Origin: a virus
Reading direction: 5' to 3' (one strand)
Virus record (IMG/VR): IMGVR_UViG_3300036791_001907
Span: 64,001-128,000 of that record
DNA length: 64,000 nucleotides
The translations under genes were made by a program, and so were the position numbers. Below, one piece after another: positions 1 to 63,937 of the stretch. Each line of letters begins with the position of its first letter. The stretch's first letter is position 1. The notes below the pieces were generated by a model, which searched no databases, had not been told where the DNA came from, and worked only from the letters and a program-made list of their open reading frames with translations.

Positions 1-275
1 TGATCAACGCCATCCGGGTCACCGTTTACGTGGTGGCGAAGCCCAAGGGGCGGGTCAAGCAGCTGCTGCCGGCCTATGTCCGGCTGAAGAACCCCGCCGG
101 TCGGCGCACCTTCGTCGCAGCGACCATCGCGACGGCAACGCCCCGGCGCGCAGAGACGCTGGCGGAGACCATCATTCGGTATGCACACATGGCGACTCGC
201 GATCGCGCGCTCGGGCTCACCGAGCTGGATCCGCTGTTCGACGTGATTGATAAGTTGAAGAAGCGGTACGGCTGA
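1..275 (+). CDS. 5'-truncated hypothetical protein directly upstream of the pentamer array (possible array-associated accessory protein)
   Basis: Frame is open from the window start (..INAIRVTVYVVAKPKGRVKQLLPAYVRLK..TELDPLFDVIDKLKKRYG*). The stop at 273-275 abuts motif copy 1. The LINAIRV...ELDPLFDVID pattern resembles, from memory, phage proteins found next to such pentamer tracts. Confidence 0.7.
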   Translation, partial: INAIRVTVYVVAKPKGRVKQLLPAYVRLKNPAGRRTFVAATIATATPRRAETLAETIIRYAHMATRDRALGLTELDPLFDVIDKLKKRYG

Positions 276-276
276 T

Positions 277-316
277 GCAGCAGACCGACGGTCGGCGGTA
301 TATCCGGTGGTGACGG
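277..316 (+). repeat. Pseudoknot motif copy 1
   Basis: GCAGCAG-ACCG-ACG-GTCGG-CGGT-ATAT-CCGGT-GGTGACGG. Confidence 0.85.
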
Positions 317-668
317 GAAGGCGGCAGAGATCCGGCTTCGTTCGCTCCGGCGTGCGACGCTGGGGCCCGGCAGCCAAGGACCGGCGTGGCAAGCCGCGTT
401 CTGGCTTGCAGCGTCTAGGTTCGGCCGCAGCGGAGGGCCAGGCCGGGGTAGTGTTCGGCTCCGCAGGTCGAGGCTTGTCCCGGTTCGGCAGCTCGGGTGC
501 GTCGTGCTGCGAATAGGCATCGTGAGGCTGGCTTCGGCAGCGTCAGGCAGCGGCGGAGGGCCTTGTCCGGGTGTGGCATTCGGCGGCTTGGCGTGCCCAG
601 GTGAGCCGAGGCCGTACAGGTTAGGCGGGATGCGCCCGGCACTGCAATGGCCTGCTCCGGCTGGCCGG

Positions 669-711
669 GCAGTAAAGAACCGACGGCCAGCGGTATATCT
701 GGCGGTGACGG
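669..711 (+). repeat. Pseudoknot motif copy 2
   Basis: GCAGTAAAGA-ACCG-ACG-GCCAG-CGGT-ATAT-CTGGC-GGTGACGG. Confidence 0.9.
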
Positions 712-1040
712 CAGTTCAGGAGCGGATGGGACGGCCCAGGCAGGGCTTGTTACGGCCCGCCGGGACTCGTTTCGGCGCCGCCGTATTGGTCTGGCTTCAC
801 ATGCCGTGGCGACGTGAGCCGCGGTCAGCACAGGAGCGGCAGCGATGGTTCGTCTAGTCTACACAAGGCAGGCCCAGGCAGCCGGAGGTATGCCCAGCAG
901 GGCCATGGCCGTACAGGACAGCAGGGGTAGGTAAAGCACGGGCAAGCCGTGCCGGGTCCCGGCAGCGAAGCCGAGTTCCGGTGTGGTGCGCCGTGGTGGC
1001 GTCCGTCACGGCGGGCCATGTCGCGGCTAGTCAAGTCGCG

Positions 1041-1083
1041 GCAGCAAAAAACCTATGGCCACAGGTATATGTGGTGGTGATGG
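1041..1083 (+). repeat. Pseudoknot motif copy 3
   Basis: GCAGCAAAAA-ACCT-ATG-GCCAC-AGGT-ATAT-GTGGT-GGTGATGG. Confidence 0.9.
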
Positions 1084-1624
1084 CAGGCAGGGCAAGCCCT
1101 GTCACGTCGCGGTGCGGCATGTCCCGGCAGCGTAGGCTTGGTCAGATACGCGAAGTCCTGGTACGCCGCGGCCGGCACAGGTTAGCTGCGGCCAGGCAGC
1201 ATAGGCTCGTCCCAGCAAAGGCAGGTCGCGACAGGGCTGGCCGCGGTTCGGCAGCATTGGCTGGGAAAGCCCAGCCCAGGTTCGCCGCGCCACGCAGGGC
1301 TTCGGCGGGGCGGGGCAGTCAAGGATCGGCATGGCGTGTCTAGCCACGGTCCGTCATGGCGAGTCGTGCTGCGGCAGCGGCGGAGAGCCGAGCCGTGGTG
1401 GCAACTGGTGGGCCAAGCTACGTTGTGGCGACGCCGGATAGGTATGGCATGCCCCGGACTGCCATGGCGAGTCATGGCGGGCCATGGCGAGCCGTGGCCG
1501 CGAAGGAGTGGCCGCCCGGCGTTCGTCCGGCGTTGGTTGGTCTAGGTAGGGACGCGTCAGCCGGGGCAGTCATGGTTTGGCGCGGCTTGCCTGGTCGTGC
1601 CACGGCAAGCGATGCCAGGGATGG

Positions 1625-1667
1625 GCAGCAAAAAACCCATGGTCACGGGTATATGTGACGGTGATGG
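1625..1667 (+). repeat. Pseudoknot motif copy 4
   Basis: GCAGCAAAAA-ACCC-ATG-GTCAC-GGGT-ATAT-GTGAC-GGTGATGG. Confidence 0.9.
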
Positions 1668-1936
1668 TGCGGCAGCTCGGCCCTGCCATGATGGGGCATG
1701 TCGAGCCGCGGCCAGCAGCGCAATGGTAGCGCTGGTGTTCCCAAGCTTGGCCTGGGTAAGTCAAGCGCTGGCCAGCCGGGGCAGCGAAGGTGAGGCTAGA
1801 TCTATCGAGCCTAGCGCTGTCATGTGCTGGTGAGCCGGGGTGAGCCTCGGTACGGTATCGCCGCTCTGGCGGCGTTAGTCGTGACATCGAAAGCTGTGGT
1901 ATGCCGAGTCGAGGTCAGACAGCAGAGGAGGTGTGA

Positions 1937-2152
1937 ATGATCGGACCCAAGTGCGAGTGCCGAAAGCCGACCTTTCCGTCTGAAGACGAACAGTCCTGGC
2001 TGTGCATGAACCCGGAGTGTGCGGGCTTCCAGCAGGTCTACTGCGAGTTGACGCCGGCAGACCTGGCGCTCATCGCCAAGCTGAAGGCGCTGGCCAATGG
2101 CCACTGGCAGCGTGTTGCAAAAACCCGAAAACTCCGCGGTACCAGGAAGTGA
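1937..2152 (+). CDS. Small Cys-rich hypothetical protein inserted inside the array
   Basis: Strong RBS (AGGAGGTG) before the ATG; CxC...CxxxxC; pentamer periodicity is absent over this interval. Confidence 0.65.
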   Translation: MIGPKCECRKPTFPSEDEQSWLCMNPECAGFQQVYCELTPADLALIAKLKALANGHWQRVAKTRKLRGTRK

Positions 2153-2225
2153 TGAACGGTTCGGCAGCCGCGGTGAGGTGCGACCGGGTTCGTCCAGCGA
2201 TGGCGGACCTTGGTGTGGCATCACA

Positions 2226-2265
2226 GCAGTAAACCTATGGCCACAGGTATAAGTGGCGGTGATGG
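2226..2265 (+). repeat. Pseudoknot motif copy 5
   Basis: GCAGTAA-ACCT-ATG-GCCAC-AGGT-ATAA-GTGGC-GGTGATGG. Confidence 0.9.
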
Positions 2266-2729
2266 AATGGCAGCATCGGACGGGCTCGGACGGGCCATGA
2301 CGGGCCGGGTTAGCTGTGCCGCGTCAAGGCAGTACTGGCTAGGTTTTTCAGGGCATGCTCTGGTGCGCCTGGTCACGGCCGTCTAGGTGAGGAGTCGCGT
2401 GCAGCGGCTTGCCACGGCCAGTTCTGTCGAGGCAAGCCGAGGCCGTCAAGGTGCGGCCAGGCAAGTAATGCAGGGATCGGGCTGGCTATGGTCCGGCCGC
2501 AATGGCAAGGTTAGTTGCGGCTGGTACCGGCGGGGCGAGCCCTGCTGTGGTATGGCCGTAACGGTAGTCCGCGGAGCGCCATGGACGGCCCCGCTCAGGC
2601 TGGCCAAGGTCGGCCGAGGCAGTCTTGCAAGGGATCGTCCAGCCTGGTTGTGCCATGGCCAGGCAGGGGAGCAGAGGTGTGTTCTGGCACCCTGTGATCT
2701 GGCCGGCCAAGTCACGGCAAGGCCGGGCA

Positions 2730-2769
2730 GCAGTAAACCCATGGTCGCGGGTATATGCGACGGTGATGG
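2730..2769 (+). repeat. Pseudoknot motif copy 6
   Basis: GCAGTAA-ACCC-ATG-GTCGC-GGGT-ATAT-GCGAC-GGTGATGG. Confidence 0.9.
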
Positions 2770-3122
2770 AAGGGCAGCCGTGGACAGCAGGGTTATGATG
2801 CGCTGCGCAAGGGCTGGTCCTGGCAGGCCAAGGATCGGCAGGAGAGCACAGGTCCGGTCTGCATAGTAGTGGCGAGACCTACCATGTCGAGCCGGGTTTC
2901 GGCAGCAATGCGAAGGTGAGCCTTGCCGGGGCGGCCGTAGCTGTGGCAGTGTAGTCGAGTCGTGGCAAGCCTAGTCCGGCATAGTTGGGCTCTGGTCCGG
3001 TCCGGCAGCAGAAGTGTGTCTTGGTCCGCCGCGTCGCGACGCGGTGGGATCCGGCAGTAATGGTGCGGCTAGTCATGGCGCCGCGAGCCGCGCTGTGTCA
3101 TGTCATGATCTGGCTAGGCCGG

Positions 3123-3165
3123 ACAGCAAAAAACCGATGGCCAGCGGTATATCTGGTGGTGACGG
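3123..3165 (+). repeat. Pseudoknot motif copy 7
   Basis: ACAGCAAAAA-ACCG-ATG-GCCAG-CGGT-ATAT-CTGGT-GGTGACGG. Confidence 0.9.
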
Positions 3166-3474
3166 GAAGCATCGGCAGCGACGGCAAGCCGTGGTGTGGT
3201 ATGCCCGGCTCCGCCAAGCTACGGCAGCAGTGGGCAGGCTGGGCAGGTTTTGCTCCGTCGTGTCGAGTGTTGGTAAGGCAGCCATGGTGTGGCCCGGCGC
3301 GTCATGTCGCGTCGTCCTTTGCGCCGGCATGGCGTGGCCGCTGTGGCAAGACACCCTTAGTCATGATGGGGCCGGGCGGGCACCTGTTTGCTGCGCCGAG
3401 TCGTGGCAGTGACGCAGTGGTGTGTTGTGCCCCGGCCTGCCCCGGCGAGTCCTGTCATCGTGGGCAGCGCTGAG

Positions 3475-3517
3475 GCAGCAAAAAACCCATGGCCACGGGT
3501 ATATGTGGCGGTGATGG
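3475..3517 (+). repeat. Pseudoknot motif copy 8
   Basis: GCAGCAAAAA-ACCC-ATG-GCCAC-GGGT-ATAT-GTGGC-GGTGATGG. Confidence 0.9.
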
Positions 3518-3840
3518 ACAGCCCCGCGCTGGCCGGCTTTGGTCAGCCATGCAGAGCTGCGGCAGCAGAGGTGAGGCGTGACCAGCACAGCCGGGGTACG
3601 GTTCGCTGTGCCCTGGTTAGGCAGGTGGGTCATGGTTCGCGATGGCGCGTTGAGCCTTGCCATGGTGAGGCAGCAATGGATCGGCGGGCTGTGGCACGGC
3701 AAGCCTGGGTCGGATCCGCTGCGGCAGCGGAGGTGCGGAACGCCATGGACCGGCAGGGTGGGCCAGGGTGGGCCGAGCCACGGCAGCACGGGTGTGCCGT
3801 GTCCGGCCTAGTCAAGGACGGATGAGCCGCGCACTGTGGA

Positions 3841-3870
3841 AGGGGGCGTGGTCTTCGGGCCACGCCCCCT
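3841..3870 (+). terminator. Hairpin closing the array (cUUCGg tetraloop), between convergent units
   Basis: AGGGGGCGTGGTC-TTCG-GGCCACGCCCCCT; 13-bp stem with one G.U on the + strand; no long U tract. Confidence 0.65.
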
Positions 3871-3872
3871 CC

Positions 3873-4079
3873 TTATACCTTCACGCCGGCGAGCAACTCG
3901 AAGACCCCGAATGCCTTACACAAAAAGATGATCAGAACCAGGGCCAGCAGACCATAAGCGAGGTGAATACACCACCGCGGGTAAGCCAGCCTCGATCCCA
4001 GCTGCTGATCGGCGAAGGCGACCAGCGCGCAGGCGATGATGAACGCCAGAACGGCCAGCAAAACGCCGAGCAAACTCAC
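3873..4079 (-). CDS. Small two-TM membrane protein (holin-like size)
   Basis: Two hydrophobic segments; start overlaps the stop of the upstream gene. Confidence 0.6.
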   Translation of the reverse strand: MSLLGVLLAVLAFIIACALVAFADQQLGSRLAYPRWCIHLAYGLLALVLIIFLCKAFGVFELLAGVKV

Positions 4080-5251
4080 GGTGCACCTCCCTGACGATGA
4101 GTCGCGGCCAGGGCCCGCAGATCCTCACGAGTGAACCCCGTCCGGACGCCAGCTTCCTTGACGAAGGGACGAATGGACCGATCCGCGCACAGTGTATCGA
4201 AGATCCGGGCATCGCCCAGTGGCAGCGTCGGAATGATCTCAGCCATCTTGGTCGCATCAACATGGATGCCATCGCTGTCGATGGCGTTGGCCAGCTCATC
4301 ACCCATGTAACTTCGCACGTCACGAATTCGCAACCGGCCCAGGTCATCGCGGTTGTAGACCGAGCCGCTGGTCGTCGAGACGTGCTGGTCGGCCAGCGCC
4401 GAGGCCACCTTCCGTGTGATCCTGAAAAGCAGGTCCTCGGCCCGCGGCACGGCGGCGGAATATTCACGAATGCGCAGCATCCGGTCGAGCTGATCGATGA
4501 CCTCGGCAGTCTTGATCAGCCGGTCAGGCGCGCGGGACTTGGCCGGATCCTTGGTGATCATGTCGGCCATCCTCTCCAGCTCGCCGGCGAGATCAGGATC
4601 CCGGGCGCGCGCGATCTTGGCGCGATCGCGAACCAGCTGCGCCGCCTCGCTTGCCGAGCAACCGCCGAAGCCGGCCATCCGTTCCAATGGTTCGTCCAGG
4701 CTGCCGAGCGCAGCCCCGTACCGGGCGGCCTTCTGGAGGATCGCCCGCGCCATCTTCAAACGGTCCGGGAAGGTGAACTCATCTCGCCATTTGTGGATGT
4801 ATTCGGCGGCGGCCTTGACCTCGAGCGCATTCCGCAGCGGCAGCTGCCGCTCATTCCCCTGGATCCAGGCAAAGTCCGAGTCAGGCAGCTTCGCCAGGTC
4901 ATCATGGGCCATCGCCGCGGCCTTCTCGCGCAGCGCATCGGCCTGGGACTCGATCCCCCAGAAGCGGGCGGCTTCCGTGAGCCGGCCCTCGATCTCCGCA
5001 GCCTCGCGCTGCGGCAGTCCGGCTTTCTTGTCGACGAAGAACGCTGCTGACAGCCATGTCGCAGCTTTTGTATGCATGGGATAGCGGCGGTGCCGCTGGT
5101 CGGCAAACAGATGCGGCAGGGTTGACTCTGGCCCACAGAGCTGTTCGACGCTAGCCTCTTTAACAAAGGCTGGTGCCTCGAAGAGCTGGACCAGTCGGTA
5201 TGTTTCCTGACCGCCAAGGTCGGTCGTCTGATCGAGGATCGGTTGTGGCAC
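4076..5251 (-). CDS. Phage hypothetical protein with two DUF6582-like motifs (possible head assembly/scaffold protein)
   Basis: GTG at 5251 with AAGGAGG RBS; internal repeats LPHLFAD..RRYPMHTKAA and LPDSDFAW..RQLPLRNALEVKAA. Confidence 0.6.
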   Translation of the reverse strand: MPQPILDQTTDLGGQETYRLVQLFEAPAFVKEASVEQLCGPESTLPHLFADQRHRRYPMHTKAATWLSAAFFVDKKAGLPQREAAEIEGRLTEAARFWGIESQADALREKAAAMAHDDLAKLPDSDFAWIQGNERQLPLRNALEVKAAAEYIHKWRDEFTFPDRLKMARAILQKAARYGAALGSLDEPLERMAGFGGCSASEAAQLVRDRAKIARARDPDLAGELERMADMITKDPAKSRAPDRLIKTAEVIDQLDRMLRIREYSAAVPRAEDLLFRITRKVASALADQHVSTTSGSVYNRDDLGRLRIRDVRSYMGDELANAIDSDGIHVDATKMAEIIPTLPLGDARIFDTLCADRSIRPFVKEAGVRTGFTREDLRALAATHRQGGAP

Positions 5252-20774: not shown

Positions 20775-21041
20775 ATGCCAGATCCTGAACTGCGCGCGGT
20801 CATCGTGCTGGGCAAGGATCACCTGAAGTGCCCTTACTGCGGCATCGCGGGGCTCGACAACTTTTACTACGTGGAAACCGCCTCGACCATGCGGGAGCTG
20901 ATCAGTCTGACGGATCAGTTGCTGCTGATCCGGTCGCATTACGCCGTGGCCGATGAGAGTACCGACAATCCCCGGCTGGGATGCAAGAGCTGCGACAAGG
21001 ACTGCGCGCTCCCGCCCGATCTCGAACTGGAATGGGAGTGA
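20775..21041 (+). CDS. Zn-ribbon protein
   Basis: CPYCG...CKSC; GGAGG RBS. Confidence 0.6.
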   Translation: MPDPELRAVIVLGKDHLKCPYCGIAGLDNFYYVETASTMRELISLTDQLLLIRSHYAVADESTDNPRLGCKSCDKDCALPPDLELEWE

Positions 21042-21043
21042 TC

Positions 21044-21313
21044 ATGGCCACGACCACCCTGGGACCGGACGGCCTGCTGGTCGAGGTGCGCGACGAAAGC
21101 GATGGCGACAACCGGGCGCCGCCCCGCACCTTCAAGGTGGCGCAGGATGCCTACGGCATCTTCGTCGAGGACGTTCAGAGCGGCCACCACGTGGTGCTGG
21201 AGATCTTCGATGGCCAGTTGAGCGCCCTGGTCTTCGACCGCGATCAGGAGGAGCCGGTGGTGAACCACAAGTTCACGCTCCCGCCCGCGGAAGACCAGCA
21301 CGGCGCCCCTTGA
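21044..21313 (+). CDS. Hypothetical protein
   Basis: Operon packing. Confidence 0.6.
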   Translation: MATTTLGPDGLLVEVRDESDGDNRAPPRTFKVAQDAYGIFVEDVQSGHHVVLEIFDGQLSALVFDRDQEEPVVNHKFTLPPAEDQHGAP

Positions 21314-21317
21314 TGTG

Positions 21318-21550
21318 ATCCGATGGCCACCGGAATATGTGGCGGTGACGGCAGCGCAGGAGAGGACAGCCGTGGCAAGCCGAGCCCGCTCGCGGCAGGG
21401 CAGGCCAAGGCGGGCCTTGGCAGCAAAGGCGGGGCGTGGACGGACGCGTTATGCTAGGATGAGCCTCGCGCAGGCAGGACCGCCGAGGATGGTTGAGGCT
21501 TGATCTATCAGGGCACGCCCAGCCAAGTCAGGGCAGGACGCCAGTCGTAC
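21318..21550 (+). ncRNA. Orphan array unit: pseudoknot motif copy 9 plus GGY-NN tract
   Basis: A-TCCG-ATG-GCCAC-CGGA-ATAT-GTGGC-GGTGACGG, then CA-GGA GA-GGA CA-GCC GT-GGC AA-GCC ... GC-GGC AG-GGC AG-GCC AA-GGC GG-GCC TT-GGC. Confidence 0.75.
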
Positions 21551-21633
21551 TGGTCGGGACCCTACCGCCGGACCCGGCGGTGGGCCTGACACCCGGGGAT
21601 CCTGGGACACCTCTTGCCCCCAGGATCCCAGGT

Positions 21634-21683
21634 GGGCCGGTCTCTGGAACGAGACGTCGTTCCGGGGGCCGGTCCGTTTTCTT
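21634..21683 (+). terminator. Intrinsic terminator
   Basis: 18-bp stem GGCCGGTCTCTGGAACGA/TCGTTCCGGGGGCCGGTC (G.U pairs on + strand) followed by TTTTCTT. Confidence 0.7.
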
Positions 21684-22635
21684 ACGGGTCAAGCCACCCC
21701 CCTTCACTGCCGAAGGGATCGCGGGCGTGCATCAGTCCCAGGGCCAGCAGCTGATCGGGTCCGGTATAGCAGGTCGAATAGTCCGGGTGGAAGAAGGATC
21801 GGCTCGGAGTCTGCTCGAGCATCAGTTCCATGGAGCGGTATTCCCGGGCGTCGCCGAAGTGCTCGCCGCGGATGATCTCCTCCCGCGCCCGCGGCACCGC
21901 GTCATCAAAATGTTTGCAATGTAGGAGCGCTCCCCGCATTGGCGCCAACGTCACCGGGACCTTCAGGCCGTGCGCGCCGCAGTCGAACGCCTGGCCCGGC
22001 TGCCAGCGCACCAGCGGCAGCTTGCTGCCGGCCGGCGCGTCGCGGCCGAGCCCATCGAAGACGCGGGTCCGCGCGCCCCCCAGGATCATGCGGTGCGGAA
22101 ACGCCGGGATCGTGATCCAGCGATAGTGCTTGCGGTCGAAGAAGGGGGTTGCGGACAGGAACGGTTCGCCGCGAACATAGCCCACGCTGCCGAACGGCCG
22201 GTCGGAATAGCAGTCAGTGAGCACACAGAAGAGCGCACGGGCCTGGGCGCGGTCGAGTTCCCCGGTCAGGTCCTGGATCGGCTTGCCGGCGCTGCCGGGC
22301 CAGACCAGCAGCTCGTCGGCATCGGCGATCAAGACCCAGCATTCCGGACAGTGTGTGTTCAGGACCGGGTTGACCCAGTCCATGCCGAAGTGGGCGGGCC
22401 CGTAGCGGTCTTGGGTCTCGAACAGGCTGACGTCAGGCCGGTCCTCGAGAAACTCGTGGGTGCCGTCGCTGGAGCCATTGTCGATCAGCAGGAACCGATC
22501 GAACCCGAGCGCCCGATAATACATCAGGAAAAAGGGGAGGCGCAAGGTCTCGTTCCGGACCACGGAAACGACGACGTGATCGGTCGGCCGGATATCATCC
22601 GGCGGCCGTGTGGACGCGGCAAGTGTAACCGGCAT
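21682..22635 (-). CDS. Glycosyltransferase family 2-like protein
   Basis: VVRNE..LPFFL.YY..LGFDRFLLIDNGSSDGT, WVLIADADE, LLHCK; GGAGG RBS. Confidence 0.85.
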   Translation of the reverse strand: MPVTLAASTRPPDDIRPTDHVVVSVVRNETLRLPFFLMYYRALGFDRFLLIDNGSSDGTHEFLEDRPDVSLFETQDRYGPAHFGMDWVNPVLNTHCPECWVLIADADELLVWPGSAGKPIQDLTGELDRAQARALFCVLTDCYSDRPFGSVGYVRGEPFLSATPFFDRKHYRWITIPAFPHRMILGGARTRVFDGLGRDAPAGSKLPLVRWQPGQAFDCGAHGLKVPVTLAPMRGALLHCKHFDDAVPRAREEIIRGEHFGDAREYRSMELMLEQTPSRSFFHPDYSTCYTGPDQLLALGLMHARDPFGSEGGWLDP

Positions 22636-61198: not shown

Positions 61199-62157
61199 TG
61201 GCAGTTGCAACGCAGAAGCAGGGACGTTCACGCACGAAAAAGGAACCGGTGACACCGACCCGCGATCAGGTGATCGCGATGGTCCTGGAGCTGGGCGGCG
61301 AGCCCGAGCGGAAGCGCTACGAGAAGATCGAGGGTCTCGAGAAGACTCATGCCCGCGACGATGTTCTCCACCACTGGAAGGTGGGAAGCATTCTGGGCGA
61401 GAGTTTCCAGGAGCACGACGAGGAGACCATCCGCGTCTATTCGATCGGCCTTCAGCGCAAGGCGCAGACGCTGCGGCTCTCCGTGCGGCTGGCCGAGCTG
61501 TATTCCGAGCCCCAGGTCCGCGAGCTGCTCCAGGCGGCATCGACCGCGGGCCATGAGCTGAACTGGGGCCATTTCCGCCAGCTGCTTCACGAGGGGCTGA
61601 CGGAGGCGCAGCGGGCCGACCTGGTGCGGCGGGTCACCAAGAACCGCTGGGGCTACCGCGAGTTGCAGGACAAGATCACGGCCATGCTGGGCGGCAAGAA
61701 GTCGCAGGGGGGCCGCAAGCCCGGCAAGACGAAGTACCGGACCTACGCCGGGGCTCTGAGCGCCATGAAGCTGCGCTCGCAGGCGTGGCTGGCGCTGGAG
61801 GAGGACTGGATCATCCAGGTCAAGGATCTGGTGCTCAAGCTCGGCGAGGACGAGAAGCTCACGCCGGAATTCGTCGCGACCACCAAGGCCGCCGCAGCGC
61901 AGCTCCGGAGCGTGGCCAACAAGGCCCAGCGCGATGCCGAGGAGGCCGAGGCCATTGCCGCCGAGGTGGACAAGGCCCTGGGCCATCCCGAGCTGACGCC
62001 GGAAGCGCCGGCGGCGACGGTGCCCACGACCAACGGCGCCCCCAAGCACAATGGTGTCCCCAGGACCAGGACCAAGGCCAAGGCCAAGGCCAAGACCGCG
62101 CCCGGCAAGCCCGGCAAGCGCATCCGGCTTGCCAAGCACCCGAAGATGACCGGATGA
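61198..62157 (+). CDS. DNA-binding protein with YhcG/DUF1016 N-terminal-like region
   Basis: HWKVG...LNWGHFRQLL..R......NRWGYREL; Lys-rich tail. Confidence 0.5.
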   Translation: MAVATQKQGRSRTKKEPVTPTRDQVIAMVLELGGEPERKRYEKIEGLEKTHARDDVLHHWKVGSILGESFQEHDEETIRVYSIGLQRKAQTLRLSVRLAELYSEPQVRELLQAASTAGHELNWGHFRQLLHEGLTEAQRADLVRRVTKNRWGYRELQDKITAMLGGKKSQGGRKPGKTKYRTYAGALSAMKLRSQAWLALEEDWIIQVKDLVLKLGEDEKLTPEFVATTKAAAAQLRSVANKAQRDAEEAEAIAAEVDKALGHPELTPEAPAATVPTTNGAPKHNGVPRTRTKAKAKAKTAPGKPGKRIRLAKHPKMTG

Positions 62158-62208
62158 TGGTGCGGGCACGCGGTGCTGACTAACCATCCAGGTCCAGGGA
62201 TTGCTGCA

Positions 62209-62598
62209 ATGCGGGGTGTCGAGGTCACCAACCAGTGGGCCGATCTCGAGATGTATGCCCAGCAGGGTCGCGACCCGGTCGGCATCATTTCCCGGGGAGC
62301 GCAGGAAGAATGGCAAATAGCGAAGGGCCCGATCAAGTTCGACCGGCCGATGGAGTGGTGGTCGGTTCGGGACGGCGACGCGGTCTACGTGCCGCTGGTC
62401 CCGTATCTGGTGTCGACAGTGCCGGAGGAGGCATTCGCCTATCTCCTGGAGATCGGGGTCATGGCCGGGATCCAGGTCAACATGACGCGGGGTCCGATCC
62501 GGCGGATCCACCTGATCCGGGGCAAGCCGGCGGAGGATCTCCGGCCGGAGACCAACGCATTCCGCTGCTGGGTGGGTCTGGCGATCCGCATCAAGTAG
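62209..62598 (+). CDS. Hypothetical protein
   Basis: ORF in operon; start uncertain. Confidence 0.5.
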   Translation: MRGVEVTNQWADLEMYAQQGRDPVGIISRGAQEEWQIAKGPIKFDRPMEWWSVRDGDAVYVPLVPYLVSTVPEEAFAYLLEIGVMAGIQVNMTRGPIRRIHLIRGKPAEDLRPETNAFRCWVGLAIRIK

Positions 62599-62606
62599 GC
62601 GAGGAC

Positions 62607-63026
62607 CTGGCGGAGCGGATCCTCGAAGAGTTGCCGCCGCGGGGTACCTTCGGCGAGCTGCTCGCCAGGCTGAACAAGGACATGGCCCAGCTCAACGCGC
62701 ACTACGATAACAGTCGGTGGCTCGCCGACATGGGCGCGGCCCTGGAGGACATCACCGTCGACCAGATGGTGCTCACCCTCGACGTTGCCGGCCGGCGGTT
62801 CCGGATCGATCCCGAGAAGCTGCTGGGAGTCCATCATCTCGGTCAGATTGCCGAGTTTCTCCAGGCCGAGGAGACAACGACCGGCATGGACAAGATCATC
62901 GCGGTTGCGGAGAGTGTCCGCGCGATCTACGACATGACCTTCCCGCGGGACGGTGCGATCGAACCGGAGAGCGGCGATGCGGGTCAAGTTTTGCAACCGG
63001 TGCAATCGGTCCCGGCCGGCCAGTAG
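62607..63026 (+). CDS. Hypothetical protein
   Basis: 3' part of ORF 62235-63026; start uncertain. Confidence 0.4.
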   Translation: MAERILEELPPRGTFGELLARLNKDMAQLNAHYDNSRWLADMGAALEDITVDQMVLTLDVAGRRFRIDPEKLLGVHHLGQIAEFLQAEETTTGMDKIIAVAESVRAIYDMTFPRDGAIEPESGDAGQVLQPVQSVPAGQ

Positions 63027-63073
63027 TCTCTGGTGCACCTGCGGCTGCCCCGAATATCGCTGGGAGGGGCCGC

Positions 63074-63937
63074 ATGGCGCGAGCAACGGCCTACAACTTC
63101 AAACAGATCGAGGCGCTTCAGAAGAAGATCGTGACCAGTCCGGAGATGTGGCCGCATTACAACGCGGTGCTGACGGGCGAAAGCTTCGCCGACCTGGTGG
63201 GAACCGTCGGCCGGCTGCTGGAAGGTAGCGTCGCTCCTCGCGTGCTCGAGGAAAGCTGCATCACGCTCCTGGGCAAGGAGCTGACCAGGCGGCGGCTGAA
63301 TGCTTTCGCGCTGCGGATCGCCGCCAACATCAAGCGGTTGCGCCAGGGCGACGTGATCTTGCCCTGGACCCGCCAGGCCGATGAAGAGTGGGCGCCGCTC
63401 GAGGTCATGCGGTGCTGGCCGGGCCGCAACCGCAAGGGGGACGCGGGGAGCTACTTTCAGTTCCTGGTGCTGGCCGGCACCCCTGTCGGGTTCAGTCTGG
63501 TCCGGTTCTGGACCCAGCGTCAGTACAGCTATATCGGGTTCGAGCTGGGCTTCTCGGGCAGGAAGAAGCGGCCGCTGCTGCATCCCGCCTACATGGTGCG
63601 GCTGCGGTTCTCGGCCCTGTTCGAGCCCCGGCTGTCGACCGAGCGTCCCGGTTTCCACAAGGTGCGGCTCCCGCCTGGTCTGGCGCGGTACAACGAGCCG
63701 CTGATGGTGGACCGGTTCTTCCGGGAACCTGGCTGCAAGCCCCGGGGCTACGCGCATGCCTGCCACGTCTGCTGGCTGGGCTTCGGCAGCTGTCCGCTGG
63801 CCGTGCACCCGCTCGACTATGAACAGCACATTTGCGATCACTGCGGCGATCCGAAAGCATGGCACGATCCGGCTGAGCCCATGGACATGTGCGTCAGCTG
63901 TGCCACCAAGATCCGGCTCAAACCCAAGGAGGCCTGA
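63074..63937 (+). CDS. Hypothetical protein with C-terminal Cys clusters
   Basis: GGAGG RBS; CHVC, CDHC, CVSC. Confidence 0.6.
   Translation: MARATAYNFKQIEALQKKIVTSPEMWPHYNAVLTGESFADLVGTVGRLLEGSVAPRVLEESCITLLGKELTRRRLNAFALRIAANIKRLRQGDVILPWTRQADEEWAPLEVMRCWPGRNRKGDAGSYFQFLVLAGTPVGFSLVRFWTQRQYSYIGFELGFSGRKKRPLLHPAYMVRLRFSALFEPRLSTERPGFHKVRLPPGLARYNEPLMVDRFFREPGCKPRGYAHACHVCWLGFGSCPLAVHPLDYEQHICDHCGDPKAWHDPAEPMDMCVSCATKIRLKPKEA

What the first reader, a model, noticed from the sequence alone, without database searches (positions are those of the whole stretch)
277..3517. Nine copies of a ~40-nt motif with covariation defining an H-type pseudoknot
Consensus GCAG(C/T)A(n)-ACCN-AYG-S2-N'GGT-ATAT-S2'-GGTGAYGG. 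Stem 1 covaries: ACCT/AGGT, ACCC/GGGT, ACCG/CGGT, TCCG/CGGA. Stem 2 covaries: GCCAC/GTGGC, GTCAC/GTGAC, GTCGC/GCGAC, GCCAG/CTGGC, GTCGG/CCGGT. The stems interleave (S1-S2-S1'-S2'), which defines a pseudoknot. All non-Watson-Crick pairs are G.U on the + strand, fixing the + strand as the folded molecule. I do not recognise it as a known riboswitch or ribozyme. Inference: it is a processing, end-protection (exonuclease-block) or protein-loading handle for the pentamer RNAs. The invariant GUGAYGG tail resembles box C (RUGAUGA), which is notable given the Nop-domain gene in the same genome.
Basis: partly seen in the sequence, partly recalled or inferred. Interest (0 to 1): 0.9.

Follow-up and report, generated by a model that had tools for sequence, protein, structure and literature searches.

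The report
Head pseudoknot of phage VIPR guide arrays
The repeated 40-base motif is a real RNA pseudoknot. It is the fixed structured module of a phage VIPR guide-RNA array, a CRISPR-like system first described in 2026, but here it opens each run of guides instead of capping the end of each single guide.

Summary
The motif occurs 12 times in the 161-kb virus record, always on the + strand: 8 copies in window 273-3518, one at 21319-21352, and 3 upstream of the window. In 55 distinct copies from this phage and nine related metagenome contigs, both interleaved stems pair in all but one case. Seven of the nine pairs change on both sides, and the non-Watson-Crick pairs are G.U only on the + strand.

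No Rfam family matches. The setting explains the motif. It lies in a staggered VIPR array of G-N-Y-N-N pentamer guides that end in GGCAG. Next to the array is a RAMP protein whose family profile hits the solved SUSP1 Vipr (E 1e-5).

VIPR guides of the SUSP1 clade carry a 3' pseudoknot tail, so a pseudoknot module is known in kind. This one is a different sequence family and sits differently. It follows the stop codon of the preceding gene by 2-15 nt (13 cases), recurs once per roughly 5-8 guides, and never closes a tract. In two relatives it lies 5' of a single guide that ends in a terminator.

The box C / Nop idea fails.

Its role as a loading or boundary handle is inferred, not shown. Earlier notes of this scan had already flagged this stretch.

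The parts
273..317 (+). Pseudoknot copy c1. It starts 8 nt after the stop codon (273-275) of the vipr partner gene and opens the main array.
   Evidence: R1 hit of 56 bits; gap to the stop codon measured.
668..712 (+). Pseudoknot copy c2
1040..1084 (+). Pseudoknot copy c3 (S1 ACCU/AGGU)
1624..1668 (+). Pseudoknot copy c4 (S1 ACCC/GGGU; S2 pair 2 is U:A)
2222..2266 (+). Pseudoknot copy c5. It lies one guide unit after the small zinc-ribbon ORF.
2726..2770 (+). Pseudoknot copy c6
3122..3166 (+). Pseudoknot copy c7. It shares its 3' flank with the upstream copy B, which points to cassette duplication.
3474..3518 (+). Pseudoknot copy c8, the last in the array. About 320 nt of guides follow it with no further pseudoknot.
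21319..21352 (+). Pseudoknot copy c12 (S1 UCCG/CGGA). It starts 5 nt after the stop of ORF 20981-21313 and opens a separate short guide tract that runs to about 21540 and ends in terminator-like hairpins.
277..3835 (+). Staggered VIPR guide array. The units are G-N-Y-N-N pentamers ending in GGCAG, and the last G of GGCAG is the first G of the next unit. The tract is G-rich, shows no codon bias, and has 53 GGCAG on the + strand against 3 on the - strand.
3836..3876 (+). Strong GC hairpin that ends the array and faces the convergent - strand genes. Probably a terminator.
   Evidence: Read from the sequence; ORF layout.
1..275 (+). 3' end of the conserved 177-aa partner gene that follows vipr. 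The vipr gene itself lies upstream of the window at record positions 62754-63666.
1937..2152 (+). 71-aa Cys-rich ORF with a ribosome-binding site, embedded in the array

Best explanation
The motif is a compact H-type RNA pseudoknot. It has S1 of 4 bp, L1 of 3 nt, S2 of 5 bp directly abutting S1', L3 of 4 nt containing an invariant UA, and then an invariant GGUGNNGG. It is transcribed on the + strand as part of a phage VIPR locus, which consists of a Vipr RAMP protein, a conserved partner protein and long staggered arrays of pentamer-coded guide RNAs.

The pseudoknot is the fixed structured module of these arrays. It corresponds to the 3' pseudoknot tail of SUSP1 vrRNAs, but here it is a head module. 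It folds first as each untranslated guide tract leaves the polymerase, directly behind the stop codon of the preceding gene. It recurs every 300-600 nt, that is every 5-8 guides, in long arrays.

Shown: the fold, the strand, the family, the VIPR context and the leading position.

Inferred: it gives each tract a defined, nuclease-resistant 5' boundary, and it gives Vipr a loading and register point. In this reading the conserved GGUGA and GG after S2' act as the first protein-bound repeat, from which protomers fill the pentamers downstream.
For: Fold and strand: (323/324 cells paired, 7/9 pairs compensatory, G.U only on the + strand).

Family beyond this genome: 47 more copies on contigs that carry Vipr homologs of 50-60% identity, or on short soil contigs.

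VIPR context:
- The pentamer phase shows G at 93% of position 1, Y at 80% of position 3, and free positions 4-5. Half of the GGCAG spacings are 4 mod 5, which is a 1-nt stagger. This matches the 'staggered arrays' of bioRxiv 10.64898/2026.04.26.720920.
- The profile of the adjacent 303-aa protein hits PDB 36pp_D, 'SUSP1 Vipr protein', at E 1.2e-5.
- Its model matches Csm3, Cas7-11 and Cmr RAMPs.
- It has 2816 relatives, mostly of about 200-240 aa.
- One guide matches its own vipr gene at 9 of 10 dinucleotides under the 1-nt-skip rule; shuffled guides reach 8 once in 200.

Leading position:
- In 13 cases over 6 genomes or contigs, the pseudoknot starts 2-15 nt after an ORF stop codon.
- Arrays end with 200-340 nt of guides and a hairpin or the next gene, never with a pseudoknot.
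- In L028 and L033 the order is stop codon, pseudoknot, one guide of about 13 pentamers, a canonical intrinsic terminator, then vipr.

A recognised handle: the 3' flank and the UA of L3 are invariant, while the 5' linker varies in length and sequence.
Against: Every internal copy is also 3' of a guide, so a 3' role cannot be excluded for those copies.

A GGCAG anchor lies between the pseudoknot and the first guide. If anchors are cleavage sites, the pseudoknot would be cut away from the guides it is supposed to lead.

In SUSP1 the pseudoknot is at the 3' end (cryo-EM, bioRxiv 10.64898/2026.04.26.720927), so a 5' loading role would need the opposite geometry.

A nested alternative (ACC with the GGU of the tail) is nearly as well paired, because those bases hardly vary. 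It loses only on 8 mismatches against 1.
Confidence: 0.55

Rival explanations
1. A 3' cap, as in SUSP1. Each pseudoknot would protect what lies upstream of it (the preceding guide, or the preceding gene's mRNA) from 3'-to-5' exonucleases once the array is cut. The terminator would do the same job for the last segment.
For: [quoted passage not shown] Internal copies follow a well-formed guide that runs in phase into GGCAG. The copies after ORFs could stabilise those mRNAs.
Against: Tracts that end before a gene or terminator never end in a pseudoknot. In L028 and L033 the single guide lies 3' of the pseudoknot and ends in a terminator. There is one pseudoknot per 5-8 guides rather than one per guide. 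The conserved flank is the 3' one.
Confidence: 0.2
2. A processing element. It would be either a very small self-cleaving ribozyme or the recognition site of a host or phage RNase that cuts the precursor into segments. This would be the functional counterpart of the hammerhead ribozymes that intersperse type I and V VIPR arrays.
For: Published arrays use hammerheads between guide segments. The motif has invariant unpaired bases and stands exactly at gene-to-array junctions, where a cut is needed. An A-rich single-stranded linker precedes it in a 65% GC genome.
Against: No known ribozyme family matches. Nine base pairs and about 34 nt are less than any known natural self-cleaver has (from my own knowledge). 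No cleavage data exist. L1 varies freely.
Confidence: 0.12
3. An insulator for transcription of long untranslated RNA. The fold would block Rho, or ribosomes that scan or start inside the array, and so is placed wherever translation stops.
For: It sits directly after stop codons and recurs along 3.6 kb of untranslated RNA. The array is G-rich and C-poor.
Against: This does not explain the invariant GGUGNNGG tail or the UA of L3, nor the co-occurrence with one Vipr clade only; a more distant relative has a different leader at the same place. No known anti-Rho element looks like this (from my own knowledge).
Confidence: 0.06
4. A box C/D-like K-turn handle for a Nop-domain protein, or a DNA-level site such as a promoter or protein-binding site.
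For: GUGAUGG resembles RUGAUGA in some copies.
Against: The GA is not conserved across the family and there is no box D. No Pfam Nop domain occurs in the record, and there are no C/D hits at the motif. Compensatory changes and strand-specific G.U pairs argue against a duplex-DNA site.
Confidence: 0.03

Closest known systems
3' pseudoknot tail of type II VIPR vrRNAs (Escherichia phage SUSP1 clade; bioRxiv 10.64898/2026.04.26.720920, .720927, 2026.10.15.759431)
   Same: Both are compact H-type pseudoknots with a 4-bp S1 that covaries. Both are the invariant structured part of pentamer-coded guide RNAs next to a Vipr gene. Both lie on the same strand as the GGY/NN repeats.
   Different: There is no sequence or model likeness: R1 scores at most 6.9 bits on the SUSP1 locus. 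S2 is 5 bp here against 6-7 bp there. L3 is 4 nt here against 7-9 A-rich nt there. Here the pseudoknot leads tracts, occurs once per 5-8 guides, and is followed by GGUGNNGG. In SUSP1 it directly follows the last pentamer of every guide and ends the RNA.
Staggered vrRNA arrays and hammerhead-interspersed vrRNA arrays (same preprint, figs S18, S19)
   Same: The guides abut with a 1-nt overlap, as described for staggered arrays. A structured RNA element punctuates the array, as the hammerheads do in type I and V arrays.
   Different: The punctuating element here is a 34-nt pseudoknot, not a hammerhead; there is no Rfam hit. The text I could read does not mention pseudoknots in staggered arrays, and the figures are not held.
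CRISPR repeat handles (Cas6 hairpin, Cas5-bound 5' handle)
   Same: Both are an invariant element flanking variable guide sequence and read by RAMP-family proteins. This is the analogy drawn by the VIPR authors.
   Different: There is no spacer-repeat alternation, there is one module per several guides, and the element is a pseudoknot rather than a hairpin.

Membership tests
VIPR system | A Vipr protein (minimal RAMP) encoded beside the non-coding tracts | tested here: met
   The profile of 9 homologs hits PDB 36pp_D 'SUSP1 Vipr protein' at E 1.2e-5. Foldseek top hits are almost all Csm3/Csm5, Cas7-11 or Cmr. There are 2816 relatives, mostly 200-240 aa, aligned to residues 1-215.
VIPR system | vrRNA made of tandem pentamers with a fixed GGY (or related) part and variable NN | tested here: met
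   In 33 in-phase units, position 1 is G in 93%, position 3 is C/T in 80%, and positions 4-5 are near uniform. Position 2 is G in only 49%, so the consensus is G-N-Y, a 'related consensus' in the preprint's terms.
VIPR system | NN dinucleotides match targets with one skipped base (1-nt skip rule) | tested here: inconclusive
   One guide matches its own vipr gene at 9/10 dinucleotides, with the skipped base at the wobble position; shuffles reach 8 once in 200. The other 28 guides have no match above shuffles in the sequence held here. Public collections were not scanned for targets.
VIPR system | vrRNAs are expressed, processed and bound by Vipr | not testable with these tools
Staggered vrRNA array | Adjacent guides overlap by 1 nt, so the end of one marks the start of the next | tested here: met
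   36 of 72 GGCAG-to-GGCAG spacings are 4 mod 5. With the last G shared, 33 units parse in phase.
SUSP1-type vrRNA 3' pseudoknot tail | H-type pseudoknot supported by compensatory changes | tested here: met
SUSP1-type vrRNA 3' pseudoknot tail | Sits directly 3' of the last pentamer of each guide and ends the RNA (one per guide) | tested here: not met
   It leads tracts after stop codons. There is one per 5-8 guides. It is absent from tract ends. It lies 5' of the single guide in L028 and L033.
SUSP1-type vrRNA 3' pseudoknot tail | Sequence likeness to the SUSP1 tail consensus | tested here: not met
   R1 with filters off scores at most 6.9 bits on the SUSP1 VIPR locus, and not at the tails.
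Box C/D RNA (K-turn, Nop56/58-bound) | Box C RUGAUGA with invariant GA, a box D CUGA partner, and a Nop-domain protein | tested here: not met
   The tail is GGUGNNGG, with the GA replaced (GG, GC, AA, GU) in 9 of 55 distinct copies. There are no C/D hits at the motif. PF01798 is absent from the record while the control genomes are positive.
Any Rfam riboswitch or ribozyme, including hammerhead | Match to a curated covariance model | tested here: not met
   There are 0 matches at gathering score over 64 kb. At E up to 10 over window 1-4200, no match lies at a motif copy; the sole overlapping hit is a weak minus-strand chance match (Hrs13, E 8.5).

The most novel reading that the evidence does not exclude
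The pseudoknot, with its invariant UA loop and GGUGNNGG tail, is an undescribed minimal self-processing or RNase-directing element. It would cut long staggered VIPR precursors at gene-array junctions and every few guides. That would make it a new, very small class of RNA-processing motif standing where other VIPR types use hammerheads.
Probability: 0.1. Interest if true: 0.8.

Novelty: new variant of a known kind. Interest (0 to 1): 0.5.

Why it matters
VIPR was described only in 2026, and only the E. coli and Pseudomonas type II systems have been studied at the bench. This locus shows a high-GC soil phage lineage with more than 50 guides in one 3.6-kb staggered array. Its structured module has moved from the 3' end of each guide to the head of each tract.

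If the head pseudoknot loads or registers Vipr, filament assembly can start from the opposite end of the guide to the 3' end that carries the pseudoknot in SUSP1. It would also mean that one handle can serve several guides, which bears on how multi-guide arrays could be engineered. The 55 natural variants amount to a ready-made compensatory-mutation series for testing this.

Tried and rejected
Searches that found nothing or only chance hits:
- Rfam at gathering and at permissive thresholds: nothing at the motif.
- blastn of window 1-4200 against 50,697 phage records: no match.
- Exact pattern scans of IMG/VR: no match.
- The GTDB genome scan gave two hits in Lachnospiraceae MAGs. The one I read (L019) is not in a guide array, and R1 scores neither locus at E up to 1, so I take both as chance.
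- The search for related loci with the long ORF form of Vipr: no relatives.
- Relatives cannot be drawn for a virus record.
- The supplement text of the VIPR preprint gives only legends and does not name the type with staggered arrays.

Readings I considered and rejected:
- A minus-strand intrinsic terminator. The consensus scan flags copies c4 and c8 on the - strand. Only four copies have the A-run, and the G.U pairs become C.A mismatches on that strand.
- Alternative nested helices. ACC with tail GGU gives 8 mismatches, and positions 2-4 with 31-33 give 16 mismatches, against 1 for S1.
- A -1 frameshift site (A6C followed by a pseudoknot). The region is non-coding and most copies lack the slippery run.

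Inconclusive:
- The partner protein has a good model (pLDDT 83) but no significant PDB match. The weak hits to winged-helix replication initiators have E values of 0.4-2.
- The 28 guides searched against the phage's own genome and two relatives gave nothing above shuffles.
- The single guide of L028 and the first six pentamers of the L033 guide, searched likewise, found no target.
- More distant Vipr relatives (L035-L038) lack the motif.
Full report
**The observation.** Window 268-3517 holds eight copies of a motif of about 45 nt, spaced 352-598 nt apart. A pattern search and a covariance model built from ten copies (R1) find twelve copies in the whole 161-kb virus record, all on the + strand. 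These are the eight above, three upstream of the window (record 61279, 62210, 62518), and one at window 21319-21352.

**The core.** It reads S1 (4 nt), L1 (3 nt), S2 (5 nt), S1' (4 nt), L3 (4 nt), S2' (5 nt) and then GGUGAYGG.
- On ten copies, all 90 pair cells are standard pairs and four pairs change on both sides. No shuffle out of 500 reaches the covariation score, and sliding the 3' partners by 1-3 columns drops pairing to 28-47%.
- No Rfam family matches.

**The family outside this genome.** A degenerate pattern scan of metagenome contigs found four short soil contigs with several copies each. Homologs of the neighbouring protein (44-60% identity) lie on contigs that I fetched.
- L027 has 10 copies, L028 6, L033 10, L034 6 and L030 5. 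All are on the strand of the genes.
- On 36 sequences, 323 of 324 cells pair and 7 of 9 pairs are compensatory.
- On 55 distinct sequences, S1 pair 1 is A:U 48, C:G 5, U:A 1 and G:G 1. S1 pair 4 is G:C 49, C:G 4 and U:A 2.
- Every S2 pair has two to five pair types, and S2 pair 1 is G.U in 25 copies. That fixes the + strand as the folded one.
- Two nested alternatives that RNAfold prefers have 8 and 16 mismatches, against one for S1. These are ACC with the GGU of the tail, and positions 2-4 with 31-33.
- The pseudoknot is therefore the best-supported fold. Because ACC and GGU hardly vary, a conformer switch is not excluded.

**What surrounds it.**
- Window 277-3835 has no codon-position GC bias apart from one small ORF.
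- The tract is G-rich (1383 G against 963 C) and holds 53 GGCAG on the + strand against 3 on the - strand.
- GGCAG spacings cluster at 49 and 59, and half of them are 4 mod 5.
- If the last G of GGCAG is read as the first base of the next unit, 33 units parse into pentamers. In these, position 1 is G (93%), position 3 is a pyrimidine (80%), and positions 4-5 are free.

Earlier first-stage notes on this genome named this pattern VIPR-like, which led me to the literature. VIPR systems consist of a minimal RAMP protein, Vipr, and vrRNAs of alternating GGY/NN pentamers. The NN dinucleotides read DNA with one skipped base. Seven types are described, with array forms that include staggered arrays whose guides overlap by 1 nt and arrays interspersed with hammerhead ribozymes. 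In the SUSP1 clade each vrRNA ends in a 3' pseudoknot tail (bioRxiv 10.64898/2026.04.26.720920). Cryo-EM shows that pseudoknot capping the 3' end (10.64898/2026.04.26.720927).

**Is this a VIPR locus?**
- The 303-aa protein encoded at record 62754-63666 has a family profile that hits PDB 36pp_D, 'SUSP1 Vipr protein', at E 1.2e-5.
- Its model (pLDDT 63) finds almost only CRISPR RAMPs (Csm3/Csm5, Cas7-11, Cmr), with weak TM-scores of 0.25-0.49.
- An exhaustive profile search gives 2816 relatives. Most are 200-240 aa and align to residues 1-215, so this clade is a Vipr core plus a C-terminal extension of about 90 aa.
- The guide that follows copy B matches the locus's own vipr gene at 9 of 10 dinucleotides, with the skipped base on the wobble position. 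Shuffled guides reach 8 only once in 200. This confirms the notes. The vipr genes of two relatives match at only 7 of 10.
- The other guides have no match in the sequence I hold.

I conclude that the locus is a VIPR system with a staggered array. Expression and binding remain untested.

**Where the pseudoknot stands.** A pseudoknot unit carries no guide. It consists of the shared G, a 3-7 nt A-rich linker, the pseudoknot, GGUGAY, zero to two pentamers and the next GGCAG.
- In 13 cases over six genomes or contigs, S1 starts 2-15 nt after the stop codon of the gene that precedes a guide tract. One of these ORFs is of uncertain coding status.
- No tract ends in a pseudoknot. The main array ends with about 320 nt of guides and a GC hairpin. 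The tract at 21319 ends in hairpins. The arrays of L027 and L028 end with four or five more anchors.
- In L028 and L033 the stretch between the upstream gene and vipr reads: stop codon, pseudoknot, GGUGAAGGCAG in L028 (GGCGGAGG, without a GGCAG anchor, in L033), one guide of about 13 pentamers, a canonical intrinsic terminator, vipr start.
- There is one pseudoknot per roughly 5-8 guides.
- The 3' flank and the UA of L3 are invariant, while the 5' linker and L1 vary.

Together this makes the element a head module of tracts, not a tail on every guide.

**Mechanism.** The fold, the strand, the family, the VIPR context and the leading position are shown. The role is inferred.
- My preferred reading is a co-transcriptionally folding 5' boundary. 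It would protect the tract after separation from the upstream mRNA and give Vipr a loading and register point on the adjacent GGUGA/GG.
- A 3'-cap role as in SUSP1, a processing role analogous to the hammerheads, and an anti-Rho or anti-ribosome insulator remain possible.
- A GGCAG anchor between the pseudoknot and the first guide is a difficulty for the head-handle reading, if anchors are cut.

**Comparison with the known.** I read the four SUSP1 tails in the record KT454805.2. They are H-type pseudoknots with a covarying 4-bp S1, a 6-7 bp S2 and a 7-9 nt A-rich L3, placed directly after the last pentamer. R1 does not detect them. The two modules are alike in kind and differ in sequence, dimensions, position and number per guide.

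The box C idea fails. The GA of the tail is not conserved, there is no box D, and Pfam Nop finds nothing in the record while its control genomes are positive.

More distant Vipr relatives (L035-L038) lack the motif. L036 has a GGCCGG anchor and a different repeated leader at the same post-stop position.

**Verdict.** The system is already published, and the head pseudoknot is a new variant within it.

Noticed in passing
record 62570-62628, upstream of the window (L002 1529-1590); target at record 62854-62883: [quoted passage not shown] The one mismatch falls on the Ser codon. The vipr genes of two relatives match only 7 of 10. This could be autoregulation, or a guide aimed at near kin.
   Followed up: partly
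window 1937-2152, and record 61941-62207 (L001 2139-2405): Two small Cys-rich (zinc-ribbon-like) ORFs sit inside the guide tracts. One has a weak Pfam Zn_Ribbon_1 hit below the cut-off. Their role in the system is unknown.
   Followed up: no
window 21317-21690: A fourth, short guide tract lies 17 kb from the main array. It starts with a pseudoknot 5 nt after the stop of a 110-aa ORF, has three or more well-formed guides, and ends in terminator-like hairpins.
   Followed up: partly
record 62754-63666 (Vipr), residues about 216-303: This clade's Vipr carries a C-terminal extension of about 90 aa: a Lys-rich linker plus a conserved end. Most of the 2816 relatives (200-240 aa) lack it. It may be the part that reads the head pseudoknot.
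   Followed up: no
L036 800-1830 and 3940-4600: A more distant Vipr relative (324 aa) has arrays with a GGCCGG anchor instead of GGCAG. A different repeated leader motif of about 45 nt (a hairpin plus GCAGCGGUCAYGG) stands at the same post-stop position. So a structured leader seems general while its sequence differs from clade to clade.
   Followed up: no
window 3122-3200 and record 62518-62600: Copies c7 and B share about 25 nt of downstream flank before their guides diverge. This suggests that arrays grow by duplication of pseudoknot-led cassettes.
   Followed up: no
window 1-275 and homologs in L027, L028, L030, L033, L034: The conserved 177-190 aa partner gene after vipr folds confidently (pLDDT 83) but has no significant PDB match, only weak winged-helix Rep-like rows. 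In three relatives (L027, L028, L033) its C-terminus ends in YCK, and in every locus its stop is followed within 2-11 nt by a pseudoknot.
   Followed up: partly
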